A stretch of 64,000 nucleotides of DNA, from assembly GCA_934086935.1 (NCBI GenBank), contig CAKOIQ010000003.1, positions 5,528 to 69,527 on the forward strand. The letters run 5' to 3'. The position numbers were made by a program, and so were the translations under genes. The notes below the pieces were generated by a model. It had not been told where the DNA came from. It saw nothing but the letters and a program-made list of their open reading frames with translations, and did no database searches. The stretch is from an uncultured Bacilli bacterium (GTDB lineage: Bacteria > Bacillota_I > Bacilli_A > RF39 > UBA660). Below, one piece after another: positions 11,172 to 63,222 of the stretch (position 1 is the first letter of the stretch; each line of letters starts with the position of its first letter).

Positions 11172-11190
11172 AAACAGATATTATCTGTTT
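11172..11190 (-). terminator. terminator at the end of typA
   Basis: Minus strand AAACAGA-TAATA-TCTGTTT followed by TTTTTCTTGTTT. The stop codon lies in the loop. The stem is short and AT-rich. Confidence 0.45.
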
Positions 11191-12980
11191 TCTCTAAAAC
11201 GATCTTTAGGATCTAATGTCTTTTTACGTAATCTAATTACATCAGGAGTGATTTCGACATATTCATCATCTTCAATAAATTCTAGAGCTTCTTCTAATGA
11301 GAATGTTCTAGGAGGTACTAAAGCGATAGCTTCATCACTACTCTTACTTCTTGTATTAGACATTTCTTTATTTTTACATGGATTGACATTTAAATCGTTA
11401 TCTCTATTATTAATACCAACTATCATTCCAACATATACATCAACTGCTGGTCCAATAATTAAGGTTCCTCTTTCTTGTAAGTTAAATAATGAATAGCCTA
11501 AACTCTTACCAGTTTCCATACTTACAAGTACTCCGTTTTTACGACTTTGAACTACACCTGCATATGGTTTGTATCCAGAGAAGCTTCTAATCATTATTCC
11601 TTCACCTTTAGTATCGGTTATAAATGCACTTCTATAGCCGATTAAACCTCTTGTAGGTGCTTCAAATTCTAGGTGAGTATAGTTTTCTTCTGTCTCCATC
11701 TTTTGTAGCATTGCTTTTCTTTCTTGTAATGCATTAATTACTGTACTTGCATAATCACTTGGAGTATTAACAATTACTGTTTCGTATGGTTCACATTTTT
11801 GTCCATCGATTTCTTTAAATAAAACTTGAGGTTTACTTACACATAGTTCATAACCTTGTCTTCTCATGTTTTCAAGTAAAATTGATAAATGAAGTTCACC
11901 TCTACCACTTACTTTAAAGCCATCTGATGATGGTAATTCTTCAACTTCTAAACCAACGTTTGTTTCTAATTCTCTTTGTAAACGTTCTCTTATGTGTCTT
12001 GTTGTTAAGAATTTACCACTTTGTCCAGCGAATGGACCATTGTTAACTAAGAAATTCATTGATAGTGTTGGTTTTTCAATTTCAATTGGAGGTAATGGAT
12101 CAATACAATTTAATTCATTAACTGTATCTCCAATAGATATGTGTGAACAACCTGCTATTGTAACAATATCACCAAAATATGCTTCTTGTTTTTCTACTTT
12201 TTTAATTCCTTCATTAACAAATAATTTAGATATTTTAAAGTTTGTTATTTCACCATTATTTTTAACTAATGAAACTGTTTCGCCATTTTTAATTTTTCCT
12301 TTAGTAATTCTTCCGATACCTAATCTTCCAATATAATCATCATATGATAGGTTTGAAATTTGTAGTTGTAATTTATCATCAACTGATCCTTCATATGGTT
12401 TGCATTGTTTAAGAATTGTTTCTAATAATGGTTCTATTGTTGTACTGTCATCATCTAATGAGTACTTAGCAATTCCTTCTCTTGCTACACCATAGATAAT
12501 TGGGAAATCTAATTGTTCATCTGAAGCGTTTAATTCACAAAATAAATCAAATGTCATATTAACTACTTCTTCAGGTCTTGCATCTTTTTTATCTATTTTA
12601 TTAATAAATAGGATAGGTCTTAAATTATGTTCTAAAGCTTTCTTTAAAACAAATCTAGTTTGAGGCATTGGACCTTCAGCTGAATCTACTAAAAGAATTA
12701 CTGTATCAACTGTCTTAATAACACGTTCAACTTCTGATGAAAAATCTGCATGACCAGGAGTATCTACAATGTTAATTTTATAATCTTTATATCTTATAGC
12801 ACAATTTTTAGAATAGATTGTGATTCCTCTTTCTCTTTCTAAATCATTGCTATCCATTACACAGTCTACAACCGCTTCATTTTCACGAAATGCTCCATTT
12901 TGTTCAAGTAAAGCATCAACAAGAGTACTTTTACCAGCGTCTACGTGAGCAACTACTGCAATATTAATAATTTTATCCAT
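11181..12980 (-). CDS. typA: translational GTPase TypA/BipA
   Basis: 599 aa. G1 AHVDAGKST, G3 DTPGHADF and G4 NKIDK motifs, with EF-G-like domains lacking domain IV. Confidence 0.95.
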   Translation of the reverse strand: MDKIINIAVVAHVDAGKSTLVDALLEQNGAFRENEAVVDCVMDSNDLERERGITIYSKNCAIRYKDYKINIVDTPGHADFSSEVERVIKTVDTVILLVDSAEGPMPQTRFVLKKALEHNLRPILFINKIDKKDARPEEVVNMTFDLFCELNASDEQLDFPIIYGVAREGIAKYSLDDDSTTIEPLLETILKQCKPYEGSVDDKLQLQISNLSYDDYIGRLGIGRITKGKIKNGETVSLVKNNGEITNFKISKLFVNEGIKKVEKQEAYFGDIVTIAGCSHISIGDTVNELNCIDPLPPIEIEKPTLSMNFLVNNGPFAGQSGKFLTTRHIRERLQRELETNVGLEVEELPSSDGFKVSGRGELHLSILLENMRRQGYELCVSKPQVLFKEIDGQKCEPYETVIVNTPSDYASTVINALQERKAMLQKMETEENYTHLEFEAPTRGLIGYRSAFITDTKGEGIMIRSFSGYKPYAGVVQSRKNGVLVSMETGKSLGYSLFNLQERGTLIIGPAVDVYVGMIVGINNRDNDLNVNPCKNKEMSNTRSKSSDEAIALVPPRTFSLEEALEFIEDDEYVEITPDVIRLRKKTLDPKDRFRENR

Positions 12981-40690: not shown

Positions 40691-40708
40691 AATTACTCCT
40701 TAAAAAAA

Positions 40709-40782
40709 GCGCACATACATAGAGGCAAATATGGCTGCTTTCTTCCGAATCTGACCAGGTTATTGCATTTGTATTGCGCATG
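40709..40782 (-). ncRNA. ffs: signal recognition particle RNA, short (4.5S-like) form
   Basis: Minus strand CATGCGCAATACAAATGCAATAACCTGGTCAGATTCGGAAGAAAGCAGCCATATTTGCCTCTATGTATGTGCGC + TTTTTTT. It contains the conserved domain IV core (GGUCAG..CGGAAG.AAGCAGCC with a GGAA tetraloop) closed by a long imperfect helix. End coordinates are approximate. Confidence 0.8.
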
Positions 40783-40866
40783 TATAATATAGCATATTTT
40801 AATTACATATTTCAATAATTTATTGTTTACAAATTTTAATAATTTGTATTTTTTATTTTTTGTTAA

Positions 40867-40882
40867 TGTTTCACGTGAAACA
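40867..40882. other. parS site 1 (perfect TGTTTCACGTGAAACA)
   Basis: 16/16 match to the Firmicute parS consensus TGTTNCACGTGAAACA. The palindrome extends to ATGTTTCACGTGAAACAT. Confidence 0.8.
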
Positions 40883-40991
40883 TATGTGGATATCTTTATT
40901 ATTAAATTAAGTAGTAATTAAGTAGTTATATATAAAATAAATATTTTTTAAATTAATCAATAAAGTTTTTTTATTAATGCATGTTGTATAA

Positions 40992-41007
40992 TGTTTCACG
41001 TGAAACA
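40992..41007. other. parS site 2 (perfect)
   Basis: TGTTTCACGTGAAACA, 125 bp from site 1. Confidence 0.8.
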
Positions 41008-41115
41008 TTGTGGACAATTTAGATATTCTGTTTAATGTACTTTTTATACTAAGATAAATTAATTAATTTTTAGCAAATTAATTTCAATAATTTGCCATAG
41101 TATGTAGAAATTATA

Positions 41116-41131
41116 TGTTTTACGTGAAACA
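41116..41131. other. parS site 3 (15/16)
   Basis: TGTTTTACGTGAAACA, 124 bp from site 2. Confidence 0.7.
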
Positions 41132-41193
41132 ATTGTTGAAATAATTGCTAATTTTTAAAATCTGTAGATTTTTTTGACTCTTTTATAGTTGAA

Positions 41194-41211
41194 TTATTTC
41201 CCGGGAAATAA
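41194..41211. other. Noc-binding-site (NBS)-type palindrome
   Basis: TTATTTCCCGGGAAATAA is a perfect 18-bp palindrome. Its core ATTTCCCGGGAAAT equals the B. subtilis NBS consensus as I recall it. Confidence 0.6.
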
Positions 41212-41223
41212 TTTTTGTGTATA

Positions 41224-41239
41224 TGTATCACGTTAACAT
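41224..41239. other. decayed parS-type element
   Basis: TGTATCACGTTAACAT keeps the left half-site apart from one substitution. The right half has an apparent 1-nt deletion. It sits in the phase expected for a parS unit. Confidence 0.5.
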
Positions 41240-41352
41240 ACATTATTATTAATCAATATATACAATTTTTTATTATTATGATGAAATAAAGCAATTTTTA
41301 AATATTTATCTTTTTGCAAATTAATTTCAATAATTTGCATTTTTTTTACTTA

Positions 41353-41368
41353 TGTTTCACGTGAAACA
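41353..41368. other. parS site 5 (perfect)
   Basis: TGTTTCACGTGAAACA followed by T and TGTGGATAT. Confidence 0.8.
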
Positions 41369-41459
41369 TTGTGGATATCTCAATCCTTTATTATTTTTTA
41401 TTCAAATTTGTTTTTTCTGTTAACTAATTACAATAATTTGCCTATTTTTGGTGTTGAAA

Positions 41460-41475
41460 TGTTTCACGTGAAACA
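41460..41475. other. parS site 6 (perfect, within a 24-bp palindrome)
   Basis: GAAATGTTTCACGTGAAACATTTC (41456-41479), about 25 bp downstream of the gyrA stop. Confidence 0.8.
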
Positions 41476-41500
41476 TTTCAATAAATAAAAGAGATAGCTA

Positions 41501-44074
41501 TTATGCTACCTCTTCATTTTCTTCTGGCTCATTTAGTACTAAACTAATTGTTGATACTATTTGATTATCTTTTAGATTAATTAATCTCGTTCCTTGAGTT
41601 ACTCGACCTAACTGTGAAATTTGATCTAAAGGTATTCTAATAATAATTCCATTATTAGTTATAATCATCAAGTCATTATTTTCTTCAAATCGTTTAATTG
41701 CAGCAATATTTCCATTCTTTTCAGTAATATTTAATGCTTTTACGCCTTTGCTGCCACGTTTTGTCTTGCGGTACTCACTGATATGTGTTTTTTTACCATA
41801 GCCTTTTTCAGTAACAATAATAATATTGTCATCTGCTTTTGCAGTTTCTAATCCTACGCATTTTCCGTTTTCTAAACTAATGCCTCTAACTCCGCTTGCT
41901 GTACGTCCCATTATTCTGACTTCTTCTTCATTAAATACAGCTATTCTTCCAGTGGATGAAGCCATTATAACATCGCATTCACCATCAGTCTTTTTAACTC
42001 CTATTAATTCATCATTTTCTTTTAAACTAATGCAAAGTTTTCCGCTCTTTCTAATATTATCAAATTCCTCAATTTTGGTACGTTTTACTAGACCACTCTT
42101 TGTAGCAAATAACAAATATTTGCTATCATCTGAAGGAGAATAACTTAACATTGATGTAATATGTTCATCCTTTTCAATTTGAAGCAAGTTAATTATAGGT
42201 ATTCCTTTTGATGTTCTTCCAAATTCAGGGATTTCATATCCTTTTACTCTATAAACTTTTCCTTTATTTGTAAAGAATGTTAAATAATCATGTGTATTTA
42301 AATTAAGCAAGTATTCAACAAAATCTTCTTCATTAGTTGACATTCCCTTTACACCTACACCACCTCTATTTTGAAGCTTGTAGTTATCAACATTATTTCT
42401 CTTAATGTATCCTTTATTTGTTAATGAAACTATTATGTTTTCTTGTGGAATAAGAGATTCATCTTCTATAAAATCTATGGCTGTCATATCTATTGTTGTT
42501 CTACGATCATCAGAATATTTATTCTTAATTTCTGTTAATTCATCTTTAATTATTTGTAATACTCTTGCCTCACTAGCTAAAATATCTTTTAAATCAGCTA
42601 TTATTTTTAATAATGCTGCCAATTCTTCATCAATTTTACTTCTTTCTAAGCCGGTTAATCGTCTTAATTTTAATTCAAGGATGCTTTCTGCTTGAATTAA
42701 TGATAAATTAAATCTTTCTATTAATGTATTTTTAGCAATTTCATCAGTTTCAGCGTTTTTGATTATTCTAATTACTTCATCAATATTATCTAAAGCAATT
42801 TTATATCCCTCTAAAATATGTACTCTATTTTCTGATTTATTTAAATCAAATCTAGTTCTTCTTATTATTACTTCTTTTTGGTAATCAATATATTTTGATA
42901 TAATATCTTTTAAAGGTAATGTTTTTGGTGTTAATCCATCTAACATTAAGAACATAATACTAAAATTTGTTTGAAATTGTGTATGTTTGTACAATTGATT
43001 TAAAATTACTTGAGGATTTGCATCCTTTTTTAAAGTTATTGTAATTGTTAATCCATTTTTTAGGTCTGTATGATAATCTGAGATACCATCTATTGTCTTA
43101 TTATGAACTAATTCTGCTACTTTTTCTTGTAATTCTTTAGTGTTTACGCCATAAGGAACTTCTGTTATTACTATACAATTGTGACCTTTTACTTCTTCAA
43201 TTCTAGCTTTACTTCTGATTGTAATTGTTCCTTTTCCAGTTTCATAAGCTTGTTTAATACCGGAATTTCCTAAAATTATGCCTCCTGTAGGAAAATCTGG
43301 ACCTTTAATAAAGTGCATTAATCCCATAGTATCAATATCGGGATTATCTATGTAAGCTATACATCCATCTATTACTTCTCCTAGATTATGTGGAGGAATA
43401 TTTGTTGCCATACCTACGGCGATACCCATGGTACCATTAACTAATATATTAGGAAATCTTGATGGTAAAACTCGTGGTTCTTTAGTGGAATCATCAAAGT
43501 TTGGATCAAAATCTACAGTATTTTTATTAATATCTCTTAACATTTCAAGGGATATTTTTGATAATCTACCTTCTGTATAACGATATGCAGCTGCTGAGTC
43601 ACCTTCGATTGTACCAAAGTTTCCGTGTCCATCAACTAGCATATATCTTTCAGCAAATTTTTGAGCTAATCTTACCATTGCATCATAAATTGATGAGTCT
43701 CCATGTGGATGATAATGTCCCATAACGTATCCGACTGTTGTTGCAGATTTTCTATGTGGTTTATCTGGAGTATATCCACATTCATACATAGACCATAAAA
43801 TACGGCGATGTACTGGCTTTAAACCATCTCTTAGGTCTGGTAATGCACGGGAAGCAATTACGCTTACAGAATAGTCTAAAAATGATGATTTTACTTCTTC
43901 TACAATATTATTTTCTGTTATTTTATCTTTTCCAGTTAATTCAGTATCAATTAAAGAATATTCTTCATCAAGTTCTTCTTCAGTATTATCAATATTGTCA
44001 TCAGCAATTTCAGGATTTTTATTGCTATCTAACTCTTGATTGTTAATAATATTATTTTTTTCTTCTTCTGTCAT
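41501..44074 (-). CDS. gyrA: DNA gyrase subunit A
   Basis: 857 aa. [19 protein letters not shown], active-site region AAYRYTE and C-terminal beta-pinwheel repeats. An acidic extension of about 45 aa precedes the conserved N-terminus. Confidence 0.97.
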
Positions 44075-47203: not shown

Positions 47204-47653
47204 TTATTTATTGTTTTTTCTGTTTTTAAAAGCTGTTTCTAATGATAATGATTTTAAATATTGATTTTGAATTATTCTATATGATGAATCAATTTCAATA
47301 CACTCATTATTTAAGAATTCAATTATACTTTTTTCTGATTTAGAATGAACCTTTTTTATGTTATTAACATTAATCCAAGCACATTCTTTTAATCTTGGTG
47401 AACAAGTTGGGAAAAAAATAATATTTCTATCTTCTTCAACTATTATTGGTGCTTTATAATTAAACCCTGTTAATGAATAAGTACCCTGTATTCTACCAGC
47501 AATACTACTTCCATAGTATTTACAATTTGAATCCATTATTTTTGATATTTTTTCATCAACAATGTAACACTCATGATCTTCATAAACTACGGTTTTCTTT
47601 TTTCCAATTGGAATTAAGGCAAGCGTATTTTTATTAATCTCATAATCTTTCAT
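47204..47653 (-). CDS. comK: ComK-family competence transcription factor
   Basis: YEINKNTLALIP...IMDSNCKYYGSSIAGRIQGTYSLTGFNYKAPIIVEE..NIIFFPTCSPRLKECAWIN...YRIIQNQY aligns along its length with B. subtilis ComK (SCRFFGSSYAGR...K.PI.V....IFLFPT.S....C.WI). Start trimmed to MKDYEIN (ATG 47653), preceded by GGGGGTGA. Confidence 0.85.
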   Translation of the reverse strand: MKDYEINKNTLALIPIGKKKTVVYEDHECYIVDEKISKIMDSNCKYYGSSIAGRIQGTYSLTGFNYKAPIIVEEDRNIIFFPTCSPRLKECAWINVNNIKKVHSKSEKSIIEFLNNECIEIDSSYRIIQNQYLKSLSLETAFKNRKNNK

Positions 47654-47692
47654 AACTTCACCCCCTGTTGGGATACAATTAAAACACTTTTT

Positions 47693-47722
47693 TTTGTCGA
47701 AATTTGTCGAATTTTGTCGAAA
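47693..47722. promoter_or_regulatory. three tandem Spo0A-box (TGTCGAA) direct repeats at 10-bp phasing
   Basis: TTTGTCGAA occurs at 47693-47701, 47703-47711 and 47713-47721. Each contains a perfect 0A box TGTCGAA (consensus TGNCGAA). They lie 40-69 nt upstream of the comK-like start codon and just past the dnaN terminator. Confidence 0.6.
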
Positions 47723-47734
47723 AACTAACATTTT

Positions 47735-50363: not shown

Positions 50364-50648
50364 TTCCTCACCCACCTTAGTTTGCTTTCTTAAGTTAATT
50401 TTAAAACAATCCTGTGGAAAAATAAAGAATAAAAATAAAAAAAATGGTTTTCCAAAGTTTTTCCACACAATTATCAACAAAATTTATCTTATTTTACCGC
50501 ATCAAAAATACTTTTTCAACAATTTCCACAAAATAAAATTAACATAAATTTTAATAATCCACATTTTCCATTTTTGTAAATAAAATATTTAGATATTTGA
50601 TATTTTTTAAAATTGTTATTTTGTTAATTAGTGAATATTATATTTATG
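50364..50648. other. oriC: DnaA-box cluster and AT-rich region upstream of dnaA
   Basis: DnaA-box variants: TGTGGAAAA 50413-50421, TTTTCCACA 50459-50467, TTATCAACA 50471-50479, ATTTCCACA 50522-50530 and TAATCCACA 50565-50573 (consensus TTATCCACA). An almost pure A/T stretch follows at about 50575-50645. The coding strand switches here. Confidence 0.75.
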
Positions 50649-50649
50649 G

Positions 50650-50678
50650 TTGACTTAAAAAAGTTTATATAATATAAT
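50650..50678 (+). promoter_or_regulatory. sigma-A promoter of rpmH-rnpA
   Basis: TTGACT, 17 nt, TATAAT, about 30 nt upstream of the rpmH ATG. Confidence 0.55.
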
Positions 50679-50708
50679 AAGAGCGCCGATTGAAATGGAG
50701 GTGTGAAA

Positions 50709-56779: not shown

Positions 56780-57961
56780 ATGGAGTCACAAGTTCAAAAT
56801 GTTAATATTGATTTAATTATACCAAATAGATTTCAACCAAGATTAGCCTTTGATGAAAAAGCATTGAATGATTTAGCTGAATCTATTAAACAACATGGAA
56901 TTATTCAACCTTTAGTTGTTAGACAATTAGCCGGTAGGTATGAAATTATAGCAGGAGAAAGAAGATATAAGGCAGCAATTATAGCTGGTTTACAGAGTGT
57001 ACCAGTAATTGTTACAAGTTTGTCTGATGCTAAAAGTGAAGAAGTGGCTTTAGTTGAAAATATACAAAGAAAAAATTTAAGTTCTATTGAAGAAGCAAGA
57101 TCTTATAAAAGAATGTTAGACAAAGATAATTTAACTCAAGAGCAATTAGCAAAAAAATTAGGTTTATCTCAGTCAACAATTGCTAATAGATTAAGATTAT
57201 TAAACTTAAGTGATAACGTTCAAAATGCATTATTAAAAGAAAAAATAAGTGAACGACATGCAAGAAGCTTACTTCAAATTAATGATAAGTTACAACAGGA
57301 CGAGATTTTAAATAAAATAATTACTGAAAGATTAACCGTTAGACAATTAGATGAGTTAATTAAAAATAGATTAGATTCAAATGTCACTGAACCGGAAATG
57401 CCAGTTAAACAAGATATTGTACCAAATGAAGTAGCAAAGTCAGAACCTGAATTGTTACCGATTGAAAGTTTAGATACAACTTTAAATAGTCAATCTGAAT
57501 CTTTAGAAAACGTGTCAGATTTAGATGTAAATTCAACTGCATCAAGCGAAGATTTAAATGGAGAAGATAAATCTGCTACTGATGAAGAACCAATGAATAA
57601 TATTTTGAGTTTTTTACAAAGCTTTAATAATTCAACTCCATCATTAGATGATGAGCCGGCAAACCTTCAAACATTTGATGATGATATCTTCAATGAAGGA
57701 CATAATGTTGATGACTCAGTTGAAGAAGCAAAAGATTCTTCAGAAGTGTTGGATTTAGATAATATTAAAAATTCAAGTGTATCAGATGAAAATCAAGTAA
57801 AACCGGATAATAGTCCAATAATTATATCGGGAGATATAAATTCTTTAAAGAAAGCATATCATGATTTACAAGATGAAGCAGAAAAAGCAGGTTTTAAAAT
57901 CAGTATGGAAGATTTTGATTTTGAAGATTTATATCAAATGATTATTAAGATTGATAAGTAG
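56780..57961 (+). CDS. ParB/Noc-family CTP-dependent DNA-binding protein (ParB vs Noc unresolved)
   Basis: 393 aa. IPNRFQPR, GIIQPLVVR, GERRYKAA (ParB box / CTP pocket) and HTH LTQEQLAKKLGLSQSTIANRLRLL. An acidic low-complexity linker of about 145 aa follows, then a C-terminal dimerisation-like segment. No parA/soj gene is adjacent. Confidence 0.85.
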   Translation: MESQVQNVNIDLIIPNRFQPRLAFDEKALNDLAESIKQHGIIQPLVVRQLAGRYEIIAGERRYKAAIIAGLQSVPVIVTSLSDAKSEEVALVENIQRKNLSSIEEARSYKRMLDKDNLTQEQLAKKLGLSQSTIANRLRLLNLSDNVQNALLKEKISERHARSLLQINDKLQQDEILNKIITERLTVRQLDELIKNRLDSNVTEPEMPVKQDIVPNEVAKSEPELLPIESLDTTLNSQSESLENVSDLDVNSTASSEDLNGEDKSATDEEPMNNILSFLQSFNNSTPSLDDEPANLQTFDDDIFNEGHNVDDSVEEAKDSSEVLDLDNIKNSSVSDENQVKPDNSPIIISGDINSLKKAYHDLQDEAEKAGFKISMEDFDFEDLYQMIIKIDK

Positions 57962-62709: not shown

Positions 62710-63222
62710 TTGAAAAAAATACTAATAATAATTGGAATAATATTTATGTTATTAAGTATGAATTATAAAAAAGCAAATAATGTTTTTATACCAAAGGATT
62801 CAATAAGATTTCGTATAATTAGTAATAGTATGAATGAAATAGATATAAGACATAAACAAGAGTTAAAAAGTTATATTGAAGATTATGTATATGACATTGT
62901 TAGTGACGCTCAAAGTAGTGAAGAAGCTGATAAGTTATTAGTAAATAATTTAGAAAAAATAAGTAGTTATGTTAACCAATATTTAAATTCCGACAATTAT
63001 AAAATAGATTATGGCGTAAATTATTTCCCCAAAAAAATTTATAAAGGAGTAGTCTATGAAGAAGGCATGTATAAGTCCTTAGTTATTACAATAGGTGATG
63101 GGAATGGTTCAAATTGGTGGTGTGTATTATTTCCTCCATTATGCCTTTTGGATGAAAATAATACAACTGCAGATGTAGATTATCAATTATATGTATCTAG
63201 AATAATTAAAGTCTTTAATTAA
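62710..63222 (+). CDS. spoIIR: stage II sporulation protein R (SpoIIR)
   Basis: 170 aa with a signal/anchor. IRFRIISNS (Bacillus: IRLRILANS) and NWWCVLFPPLCL are hallmark SpoIIR motifs. TTG start. Confidence 0.85.
   Translation: MKKILIIIGIIFMLLSMNYKKANNVFIPKDSIRFRIISNSMNEIDIRHKQELKSYIEDYVYDIVSDAQSSEEADKLLVNNLEKISSYVNQYLNSDNYKIDYGVNYFPKKIYKGVVYEEGMYKSLVITIGDGNGSNWWCVLFPPLCLLDENNTTADVDYQLYVSRIIKVFN

What the first reader, a model, noticed from the sequence alone, without database searches (positions are those of the whole stretch)
40806..41479. Plasmid-like phased tandem array of parS centromere sites in the 0.8-kb gyrA / SRP-RNA spacer
There are four perfect copies of TGTTTCACGTGAAACA (40867-82, 40992-41007, 41353-68, 41460-75). 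There is also one 15/16 copy (41116-31) and one decayed copy (41224-39). Start-to-start spacings are 125, 124, 108, 129 and 107 bp. The 16-mer is the Firmicute parS consensus TGTTNCACGTGAAACA. Each copy is embedded in a recognisable ~120-bp unit: AT-rich inverted repeat, 12-23 nt, parS, then in three units a TGTGGAyAw 9-mer. The chromosomal parS sites I know of (B. subtilis, S. pneumoniae, Caulobacter, Corynebacterium) are dispersed singly over kb to hundreds of kb and often lie inside genes. A dense, phased, non-coding tandem array is the architecture of plasmid and phage centromeres (sopC, parC type). Here it sits about 9 kb from oriC in an unusually long non-coding gap. I am not aware of such a chromosomal arrangement having been described.
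Basis: partly seen in the sequence, partly recalled or inferred. Interest (0 to 1): 0.85.

Follow-up and report, generated by a model that had tools for sequence, protein, structure and literature searches.

The report
Origin-proximal chromosomal parS centromere array
The 0.7-kb gap between gyrA and the SRP-RNA gene holds a real, selected cluster of six ParB-binding (parS) sites plus one Noc-binding site; it is most likely the chromosome's centromere in a lineage of uncultured gut Bacilli, but dense chromosomal parS arrays are already known and turn out to be common.

Summary
There are four perfect TGTTTCACGTGAAACA sites, one 15/16 copy and one decayed copy in 40867-41475, against 0.03 expected by chance. 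The region is non-coding and lies about 9 kb from oriC.

It is not an oddity of this window. In 75 of 77 related genomes the same gyrA-ffs spacer carries 1-12 perfect parS: 343 sites there, against 6 in the other ~1.3 Mb examined. Against a second strain of the species, site columns differ at 3.5% and the rest of the spacer at 28%, so the sites are under selection.

It also missed that the TGTGGAyAw 9-mers are one-mismatch DnaA boxes. The only ParB-family gene in the window (56780-57961) has Noc-type specificity residues. Canonical ParA-ParB genes occur in related genomes that carry the same array, but I could not locate them for this species.

The "undescribed, plasmid-like, phased" reading fails. 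Myxococcus xanthus has 22 parS in 3 kb, my survey found dense arrays across many phyla, and the spacings show no helical phasing.

What does look new is a lineage-wide, fast-evolving mixed parS/NBS array anchored at gyrA-ffs.

The parts
41460..41475 (.). parS copy 1 (perfect), 26 nt from the gyrA stop
   Evidence: conserved in L001; mutated in strain L405 only
41353..41368 (.). parS copy 2 (perfect)
41224..41239 (.). parS copy 3, decayed (1 deletion + 2 substitutions relative to the perfect site in L001)
41195..41210 (.). perfect Noc-binding site (NBS) TATTTCCCGGGAAATA, 13 nt from parS copy 3
   Evidence: 0 expected by chance; the only match in 64 kb; identical in L001; same core as the experimental NBS
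41116..41131 (.). parS copy 4 (15/16; perfect in L001 and in strains L405/L406/L409)
40992..41007 (.). parS copy 5 (perfect)
40867..40882 (.). parS copy 6 (perfect)
41316..41338 (.). 23-nt inverted repeat GCAAATTAATTTCAATAATTTGC, 14 nt from parS 2; partner unknown
   Evidence: 0/46 differences against L001 over both copies; found only in this species
41073..41095 (.). second identical copy of the 23-nt inverted repeat, 20 nt from parS 4 (weaker copies at 40829-40851 and 41419-41441)
41370..41378 (-). DnaA-box-like ATATCCACA, 1 nt from parS 2 (others at 40885-40893 and 41009-41017)
   Evidence: partly conserved in L001; rare next to parS in relatives (11/352)
40694..40790 (-). SRP RNA gene (ffs), boundary of the array
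   Evidence: ffs follows the array in 6 of 6 relatives tested
40786..40815 (-). promoter-like site for ffs (TTGAAA-18-TATATT with TG); its -35 region shares AATTATTGAAAT with the inverted repeat
   Evidence: consensus match only; fully conserved in L001
41488..41515 (-). terminator-like hairpin overlapping the gyrA stop
41501..44074 (-). gyrA, the upstream boundary gene
56780..57961 (+). only ParB-family gene in the window. Noc-type paralogue (specificity residues Q173 R179 N184 R201), Noc-like C-terminus, no N-terminal membrane helix, long acidic linker. Predicted reader of the NBS, not of parS.
50364..50700 (.). probable oriC (dnaA-rpmH spacer with four one-mismatch DnaA boxes), about 9 kb from the array

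Best explanation
The gyrA-ffs spacer is the main origin-proximal centromere, meaning the ParB loading zone, of this chromosome.

Inferred mechanism, from established ParB biology: each parS nucleates a ParB dimer. With CTP the dimer closes into a clamp and slides onto flanking DNA. Several sites packed into 0.7 kb raise the loading rate and build one dense partition complex about 9 kb from oriC. That complex recruits SMC-ScpAB and, where ParA is present, drives origin segregation.

The single NBS, 13 nt from a parS, is read by the Noc-type paralogue encoded 15 kb away. Two related CTP clamps would therefore load on the same platform.

The array evolves by birth and death. Tandem duplication of a segment holding a parS (in this species together with part of the ffs promoter region) creates copies. 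The flanks then diverge, the 16-mers are kept by selection, and single redundant copies occasionally decay, as in copies 3 and 4 of this window.

Shown here: site identity, position, enrichment, conservation, selection, and the presence of ParA/ParB and Noc-type genes in the lineage. Inferred: binding, spreading, SMC loading and segregation.
For: - Sites match the canonical and experimentally used parS and NBS cores exactly.
- There are 5 sites against 0.03 expected.
- In 77 related loci, 343 perfect parS lie within 2 kb downstream of gyrA, against 6 in the other ~1.3 Mb. ffs closes the spacer in 6 of 6 relatives tested.
- Window against L001: parS plus NBS columns differ at 4/113, other spacer columns at 160/562, Fisher p = 2e-10.
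- L025 has 12 perfect parS with no detectable repeat in the flanks. L009 has a young 117-bp x 5.2 tandem repeat.
- Sites fall into two discrete classes with no hybrids.
- Canonical ParA and ParB (R173 type, with an N-terminal RKALGRGLEELF-type motif) occur in the lineage. They sit in the same assembly as a gyrA-downstream array in OZ006970.1, CAKPHO01, JAEEMF01, CALVQZ01 and CANQFD01.
- The window's own ParB homologue and its 120 best relatives all carry Q173 and R201, the Noc pattern.
Against: - No canonical ParB or ParA gene was found for this species. None is in the 64-kb window or the whole 76-kb contig.
- The typA locus, where three relatives carry soj-parB, lacks it here.
- Two of the six sites are damaged in this strain. 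Recent polymorphisms also hit parS, so per-site constraint is weak.
- No binding, ChIP or Hi-C data can exist for this uncultured organism.
Confidence: 0.8

Rival explanations
1. This species has lost canonical ParAB. The array would then be read by the Noc-type paralogue alone (dual or shifted specificity), or it would be a decaying relic.
For: - The only ParB-family gene in the 76 kb around the origin is Noc-type.
- soj-parB is missing from both positions where relatives carry it.
- Two of the six parS are damaged in the window's strain cluster.
- Residue 184 is N rather than the Noc-typical K.
Against: - Four perfect 16-mers persist, and site columns are about 8 times more conserved than the flanks.
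- parS and NBS stay as two discrete classes with no intermediates across about 450 sites, which argues for two readers.
- B. subtilis Noc does not nucleate on parS (PMC8429893).
- 25 of 80 related soj-parB loci lie away from noc, so the gene may simply be elsewhere in the unsampled ~1.2 Mb.
Confidence: 0.1
2. The array acts mainly as a regulatory element: a ParB roadblock or silencer controlling ffs or gyrA, or a ParA/DnaA regulatory hub using the adjacent DnaA-box-like 9-mers. Segregation would be secondary.
For: - The array lies between a terminator-like hairpin of gyrA and the ffs promoter.
- The repeat units share the ffs -35 region.
- Three one-mismatch DnaA boxes lie 1-2 nt from parS.
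Against: - Promoter-like sites are not enriched: 14 found against 14.7 expected.
- DnaA-box adjacency is seen at only 11 of 352 parS in relatives and is only partly conserved in L001.
- The copy number and spacing of the arrays vary freely across the lineage, which is unlike an operator.
Confidence: 0.07
3. It is a neutral tandem repeat, a dispersed repeat family, or the remnant of an integrated plasmid or phage centromere.
For: - Repeat-like units are present.
- Assemblies of this species often break inside the spacer.
Against: - No copy of the unit or of the inverted repeat occurs elsewhere in the window.
- There is no plasmid or phage match.
- The flanks are core genes in conserved synteny.
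- There is strong site-specific selection.
Confidence: 0.03

Closest known systems
Myxococcus xanthus chromosomal parS cluster (22-24 sites in about 3 kb, about 4 kb upstream of parA; Iniesta 2014, PMC3899335; Harms 2013)
   Same: A dense chromosomal, origin-proximal array of canonical 16-bp parS with a mean spacing near 140 bp. In Myxococcus it is bound by ParB in vitro.
   Different: The Myxococcus cluster sits next to parAB, in a GC-rich deltaproteobacterium, with no NBS. Here the array lies between gyrA and ffs, away from any parAB, has 6 copies, and includes a Noc site.
Bacillus subtilis Spo0J-parS / SMC loading system (TGTTNCACGTGAAACA)
   Same: The same parS consensus, the same phylum, origin-proximal sites, and the same gene neighbourhood (dnaA-dnaN-recF-gyrB-gyrA ... 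scr-dnaX-recR; rsmG-noc).
   Different: By my recollection, not tested here, the B. subtilis sites are single and spread over hundreds of kb, several of them inside genes. Here all the sites in 64 kb are packed into one 0.7-kb spacer.
Noc-NBS nucleoid occlusion system of Firmicutes (Wu 2009; Jalal 2020, 2021)
   Same: An identical 16-bp NBS. The paralogue has Q173 and R201, a Noc-like C-terminus, and a position right after rsmG.
   Different: The paralogue lacks the N-terminal amphipathic membrane helix, has N (not K) at position 184, and has a long acidic linker. NBS are enriched 8-fold in the centromere spacer and in some relatives alternate with parS in tandem repeats.
Plasmid and phage centromere arrays (F sopC, P1 parS, R1 parC)
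   Same: Iterated partition-protein binding sites in a short non-coding stretch.
   Different: Those arrays are adjacent to their own parAB/parMR operon, on mobile replicons, with replicon-specific repeats. This array uses the universal chromosomal parS, sits between core genes, and has no match in plasmid or phage collections.

Membership tests
Chromosomal ParABS centromere (parS) | 16-bp palindrome matching TGTTNCACGTGAAACA | tested here: met
   4 perfect sites, one 15/16 copy and one decayed copy
Chromosomal ParABS centromere (parS) | Origin-proximal position | tested here: met
   About 9 kb from the dnaA-rpmH spacer and the GC-skew minimum
Chromosomal ParABS centromere (parS) | Sites conserved and under selection | tested here: met
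   Site columns differ at 3.5% against 28.5% for the rest of the spacer, p = 2e-10. 343 sites in the spacer against 6 outside across 77 loci.
Chromosomal ParABS centromere (parS) | Cognate ParB with a parS-type recognition helix (R173, small residue at 201) in the same genome | tested here: inconclusive
   Absent from the 76-kb contig. Present in the same assembly as a gyrA-downstream array in 5 relatives.
Chromosomal ParABS centromere (parS) | ParB binding and spreading, SMC loading at the site | not testable with these tools
   Needs ChIP-seq, EMSA or Hi-C
Plasmid-type centromere array (sopC/parC-like) | Lies next to its own partition operon on a mobile replicon | tested here: not met
   No parA or parB within the contig. 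Core syntenic flanks. No plasmid or phage similarity.
Plasmid-type centromere array (sopC/parC-like) | Regular, phased tandem repeat units | tested here: not met
   Tandem Repeats Finder finds no array in the window. No helical phasing in the lineage.
Noc-NBS system | NBS 16-mer TATTTCCCGGGAAATA | tested here: met
   Perfect site at 41195-41210, 0 expected by chance. Conserved in L001.
Noc-NBS system | Specificity residues Q173, K179, K184, R201 | tested here: inconclusive
   The window protein has Q, R, N, R. The relatives have QKNR or QKSR. The two switching residues are met, but the permissive K184 is not.
Noc-NBS system | N-terminal amphipathic membrane-targeting helix | tested here: not met
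   The protein starts 14 residues before the PNRFQPR box, and only 50 nt separate it from rsmG. The same holds in 8 further lineage members.
DnaA-box cluster | Several TTATCCACA-type boxes conserved across relatives | tested here: inconclusive
   Three one-mismatch boxes lie next to parS. They are partly conserved in L001. Only 11 of 352 parS in relatives have one.
Dispersed repeat / MITE | Copies of the unit at unrelated loci | tested here: not met
   No other copy in 64 kb. A whole genome was not available.

The most novel reading that the evidence does not exclude
In this lineage the gyrA-ffs spacer may be a shared loading platform for two paralogous CTP clamps: canonical ParB on parS, and a Noc-derived paralogue that has lost its membrane anchor on NBS. 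The Noc-type protein would have been re-purposed from nucleoid occlusion to an origin-organising or partition role. In species such as this one, where no parAB is found near the origin, it might be the main organiser.
Probability: 0.2. Interest if true: 0.7.

Novelty: new variant of a known kind. Interest (0 to 1): 0.45.

Why it matters
The field has an open question: why do parS sites cluster, and what sets their number? The review PMC7333895 asks this directly.

This lineage offers a natural experiment. Hundreds of gut and rumen species carry the centromere at one fixed locus. Copy number runs from 1 to 12 or more, spacing from 36 to about 290 bp, and turnover by duplication and decay is visible.

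The conserved mixing of parS with Noc sites, together with a Noc paralogue that lacks its membrane helix, bears on how ParB and Noc diverged after duplication. It also raises the question of whether two sliding clamps can share a loading zone.

There is also a practical use. The array marks the origin region in MAGs, and it explains why assemblies of these genomes often break there.

Tried and rejected
- Tandem-repeat detection in the window found no array. The units are too diverged.
- Helical phasing was rejected.
- The DnaA-box and parS composite as a conserved module was rejected as a lineage rule: 11 of 352.
- The 23-nt inverted repeat as a lineage-wide motif was rejected. It is found only in this species.
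- Promoter enrichment in the spacer: none.
- Unknown ncRNA in the spacer: no Rfam match beyond ffs.
- Mobile-element origin: no plasmid or phage similarity.
- The search for this species' ParB failed by every route tried. These were tblastn of the window and flanks, the synteny positions used by relatives, and the rest of the 76-kb contig. The ParB scan of genome contigs returned only the best 80 of more than 600 loci, and this species was not among them.
- The Livny 2007 survey could not be read.

Full report
**Observation.** The sequence is as described. TGTTTCACGTGAAACA occurs perfectly at 40867, 40992, 41353 and 41460, and with one mismatch at 41116. No other match with up to two mismatches exists in the 64 kb. 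Chance expectation is 0.03. The sixth, "decayed" copy (41224-41239) is a genuine former site. In the aligned spacer of a second strain of the same species (L001, GyrA 98% identical) that position is a perfect parS. The stretch has no ORF of 50 aa or more. It is bounded by the gyrA stop codon (41501) and the SRP RNA gene (40694-40790). It lies about 9 kb from the dnaA-rpmH spacer, where the GC skew turns and one-mismatch DnaA boxes cluster.

**Organism and conservation.** GyrA relatives are uncultured, low-GC gut and rumen Bacilli MAGs. They include Clostridium sp. CAG:628, CAG:1193 and Ca. Coprovivens, filed as Bacilli incertae sedis.

- In 75 of 77 such loci with enough downstream sequence, at least one perfect parS lies within 2 kb after gyrA.
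- That gives 343 sites in the spacers, against 6 in the remaining ~1.3 Mb of flanks.
- In six of six loci tested, ffs closes the spacer.
- Copy number per locus runs up to 12 in a relaxed-match count. L025 has 12 perfect sites.
- Spacing runs from 36 to about 290 bp with no helical periodicity, Rayleigh p 0.13-0.53.
- Some arrays are young tandem repeats, such as L009 with 117 bp x 5.2 at 93% identity. Others, such as L025 with 12 perfect sites, have flanks with no detectable repeat.

**Selection.** Between the window and L001, parS and NBS columns differ at 4 of 113 positions, and the rest of the spacer at 160 of 562 (Fisher p = 2e-10). All four changes are losses in the window's strain cluster. 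One of them, at 41121, is still polymorphic among strains. The sites are therefore functional, but individually redundant.

1. TATTTCCCGGGAAATA at 41195-41210 is a perfect Noc-binding site. It is the only one in 64 kb with zero expected by chance, and it is conserved in L001 13 nt from parS 3. It is the same core used in Noc biochemistry, where Noc nucleates on NBS and not on parS (PMC8429893).
2. The TGTGGAyAw 9-mers are one-mismatch DnaA boxes. Their pairing with parS is only partly conserved in L001, and it is rare in relatives at 11 of 352. I treat them as unproven.
3. The only ParB-family gene in the window (56780-57961, right after rsmG) is a Noc-type paralogue.
   - At the four specificity positions defined by Jalal et al. 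2020 (Noc QKKR; ParB R..G; PMC7383237) it reads QRNR.
   - Its 120 best homologues read QKNR, QKSR or QRNR.
   - It has a Noc-like C-terminus.
   - It lacks the N-terminal amphipathic helix and has a long acidic linker, like all lineage members inspected.
   - It scores 274.6 bits on the NCBIfam Noc model, below the 315-bit cut-off.

**Who reads parS?** Across about 450 sites in the related loci, the sequences fall into two discrete classes, parS and NBS, with no hybrids. That argues for two readers.

- Canonical ParA-ParB pairs exist in the lineage. They have an R173-type helix and an N-terminal RKALGRGLEELF-type motif.
- 55 of 80 loci have the arrangement rsmG-noc-soj-parB. In 25 of 80, soj-parB lies elsewhere.
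- Five assemblies hold both a canonical ParB and a gyrA-downstream parS array: OZ006970.1 (about 20 kb apart), CAKPHO010000001.1 (about 27 kb apart), JAEEMF01, CALVQZ01 and CANQFD01.
- For the window's own species I could not find ParB. It is not in the window, not in the full 76-kb contig, and not at the typA locus where three relatives carry it.

This is the main gap in the argument.

**Mixed arrays.** NBS are 8-fold enriched in the spacer, at 35 sites in 17 of 77 loci, but they also occur dispersed. In L009 every 117-bp unit carries one parS and one NBS. Of the 120 contigs returned, 80 have gyrA directly adjacent, and mean GC is 0.27. Only one contig had a parAB context. The parS/NBS mixture downstream of gyrA is thus a hallmark of this lineage.

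**Comparison with what is known.** Clustering of parS near origins is textbook knowledge, and its cause is an acknowledged open question (PMC7333895). A dense array is already described: Myxococcus xanthus has 22 parS repeats in 3 kb, bound by ParB in vitro (PMC3899335).

My scan of one genome per 185,579 species for two parS 85-115 nt apart stopped at 120 loci, spread across many phyla.

- 57 of the 120 have at least 4 sites within 1 kb. Examples are Achromobacter kerstersii with 7, a Paceibacterota chromosome with 8, and a Moranbacteria contig with 9.
- In most of the loci outside the Bacilli lineage where a neighbouring gene was identified, the cluster lies just upstream of parA-parB. In the Bacilli lineage, and in a few spirochaetes, it lies next to gyrA.

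So the arrangement is neither undescribed nor plasmid-specific. The spacer has no similarity to plasmids or phages.

**Repeat unit.** Four of the six sites are preceded, 14-20 nt away, by an inverted repeat. Two copies are identical: GCAAATTAATTTCAATAATTTGC at 41073 and 41316. It shows 0 of 46 differences against L001 but occurs only in this species. It shares AATTATTGAAAT with the -35 region of the ffs promoter-like site. This suggests the units arose by duplicating a parS together with part of the ffs promoter region. In unit 3 the NBS occupies the position the repeat has elsewhere. What binds the repeat is unknown.

**Verdict.** This is a real, selected, lineage-wide chromosomal centromere array. 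It is a new variant of a known kind rather than a new kind. The variant has three features: it is anchored at gyrA-ffs, it is detached from parAB, and it is mixed with Noc sites. I put confidence at about 0.8 that it works as a ParB loading zone. Interest is moderate (0.45).

Noticed in passing
window 41195-41210: A perfect Noc-binding site lies inside the parS array. NBS are 8-fold enriched in the gyrA-ffs spacer of relatives, and in L009 they alternate with parS in a 117-bp tandem repeat.
   Followed up: yes
window 56780-57961: The ParB-family protein after rsmG is Noc-type (QRNR). It lacks the membrane-targeting N-terminal helix and has a roughly 150-aa acidic linker. No soj or spo0J follows it; a PBP gene on the opposite strand does.
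   Followed up: yes
window 41073-41095 and 41316-41338: Two identical copies of a 23-nt inverted repeat are perfectly conserved between strains but found only in this species. The binding partner is unknown.
   Followed up: partly
window 40885-40893, 41009-41017, 41370-41378: One-mismatch DnaA boxes lie 1-2 nt from three parS sites. Conservation is weak.
   Followed up: partly
window 47204-47731: A comK homologue is inserted between dnaN and recF in the origin gene cluster. It is conserved in relatives (L201, L403).
   Followed up: no
L408, L410, L412 (same species): Short-read assemblies of this species repeatedly end inside or at the edge of the array, so the array is an assembly breakpoint.
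   Followed up: no
L120, L134, L144, L146, L179, L193: Spirochaete genomes also have paired parS next to gyrA. In L146 and L193 parA (and in L146 parB) lie close by.
   Followed up: no
L390, L397, L402: In three relatives soj-parB lies about 1.4 kb downstream of typA. In the window typA (11181-12980) is followed by rubrerythrin and FemAB instead.
   Followed up: partly
window 62710-63222 and L403 19520-20886: Sporulation genes (spoIIR, spoIID, an M23 peptidase) and PBPs are present in a 25%-GC genome of a MAG lineage often labelled 'Tenericutes' (related complete chromosomes are 1.3-1.5 Mb), so the organism is probably a walled spore-former.
   Followed up: no
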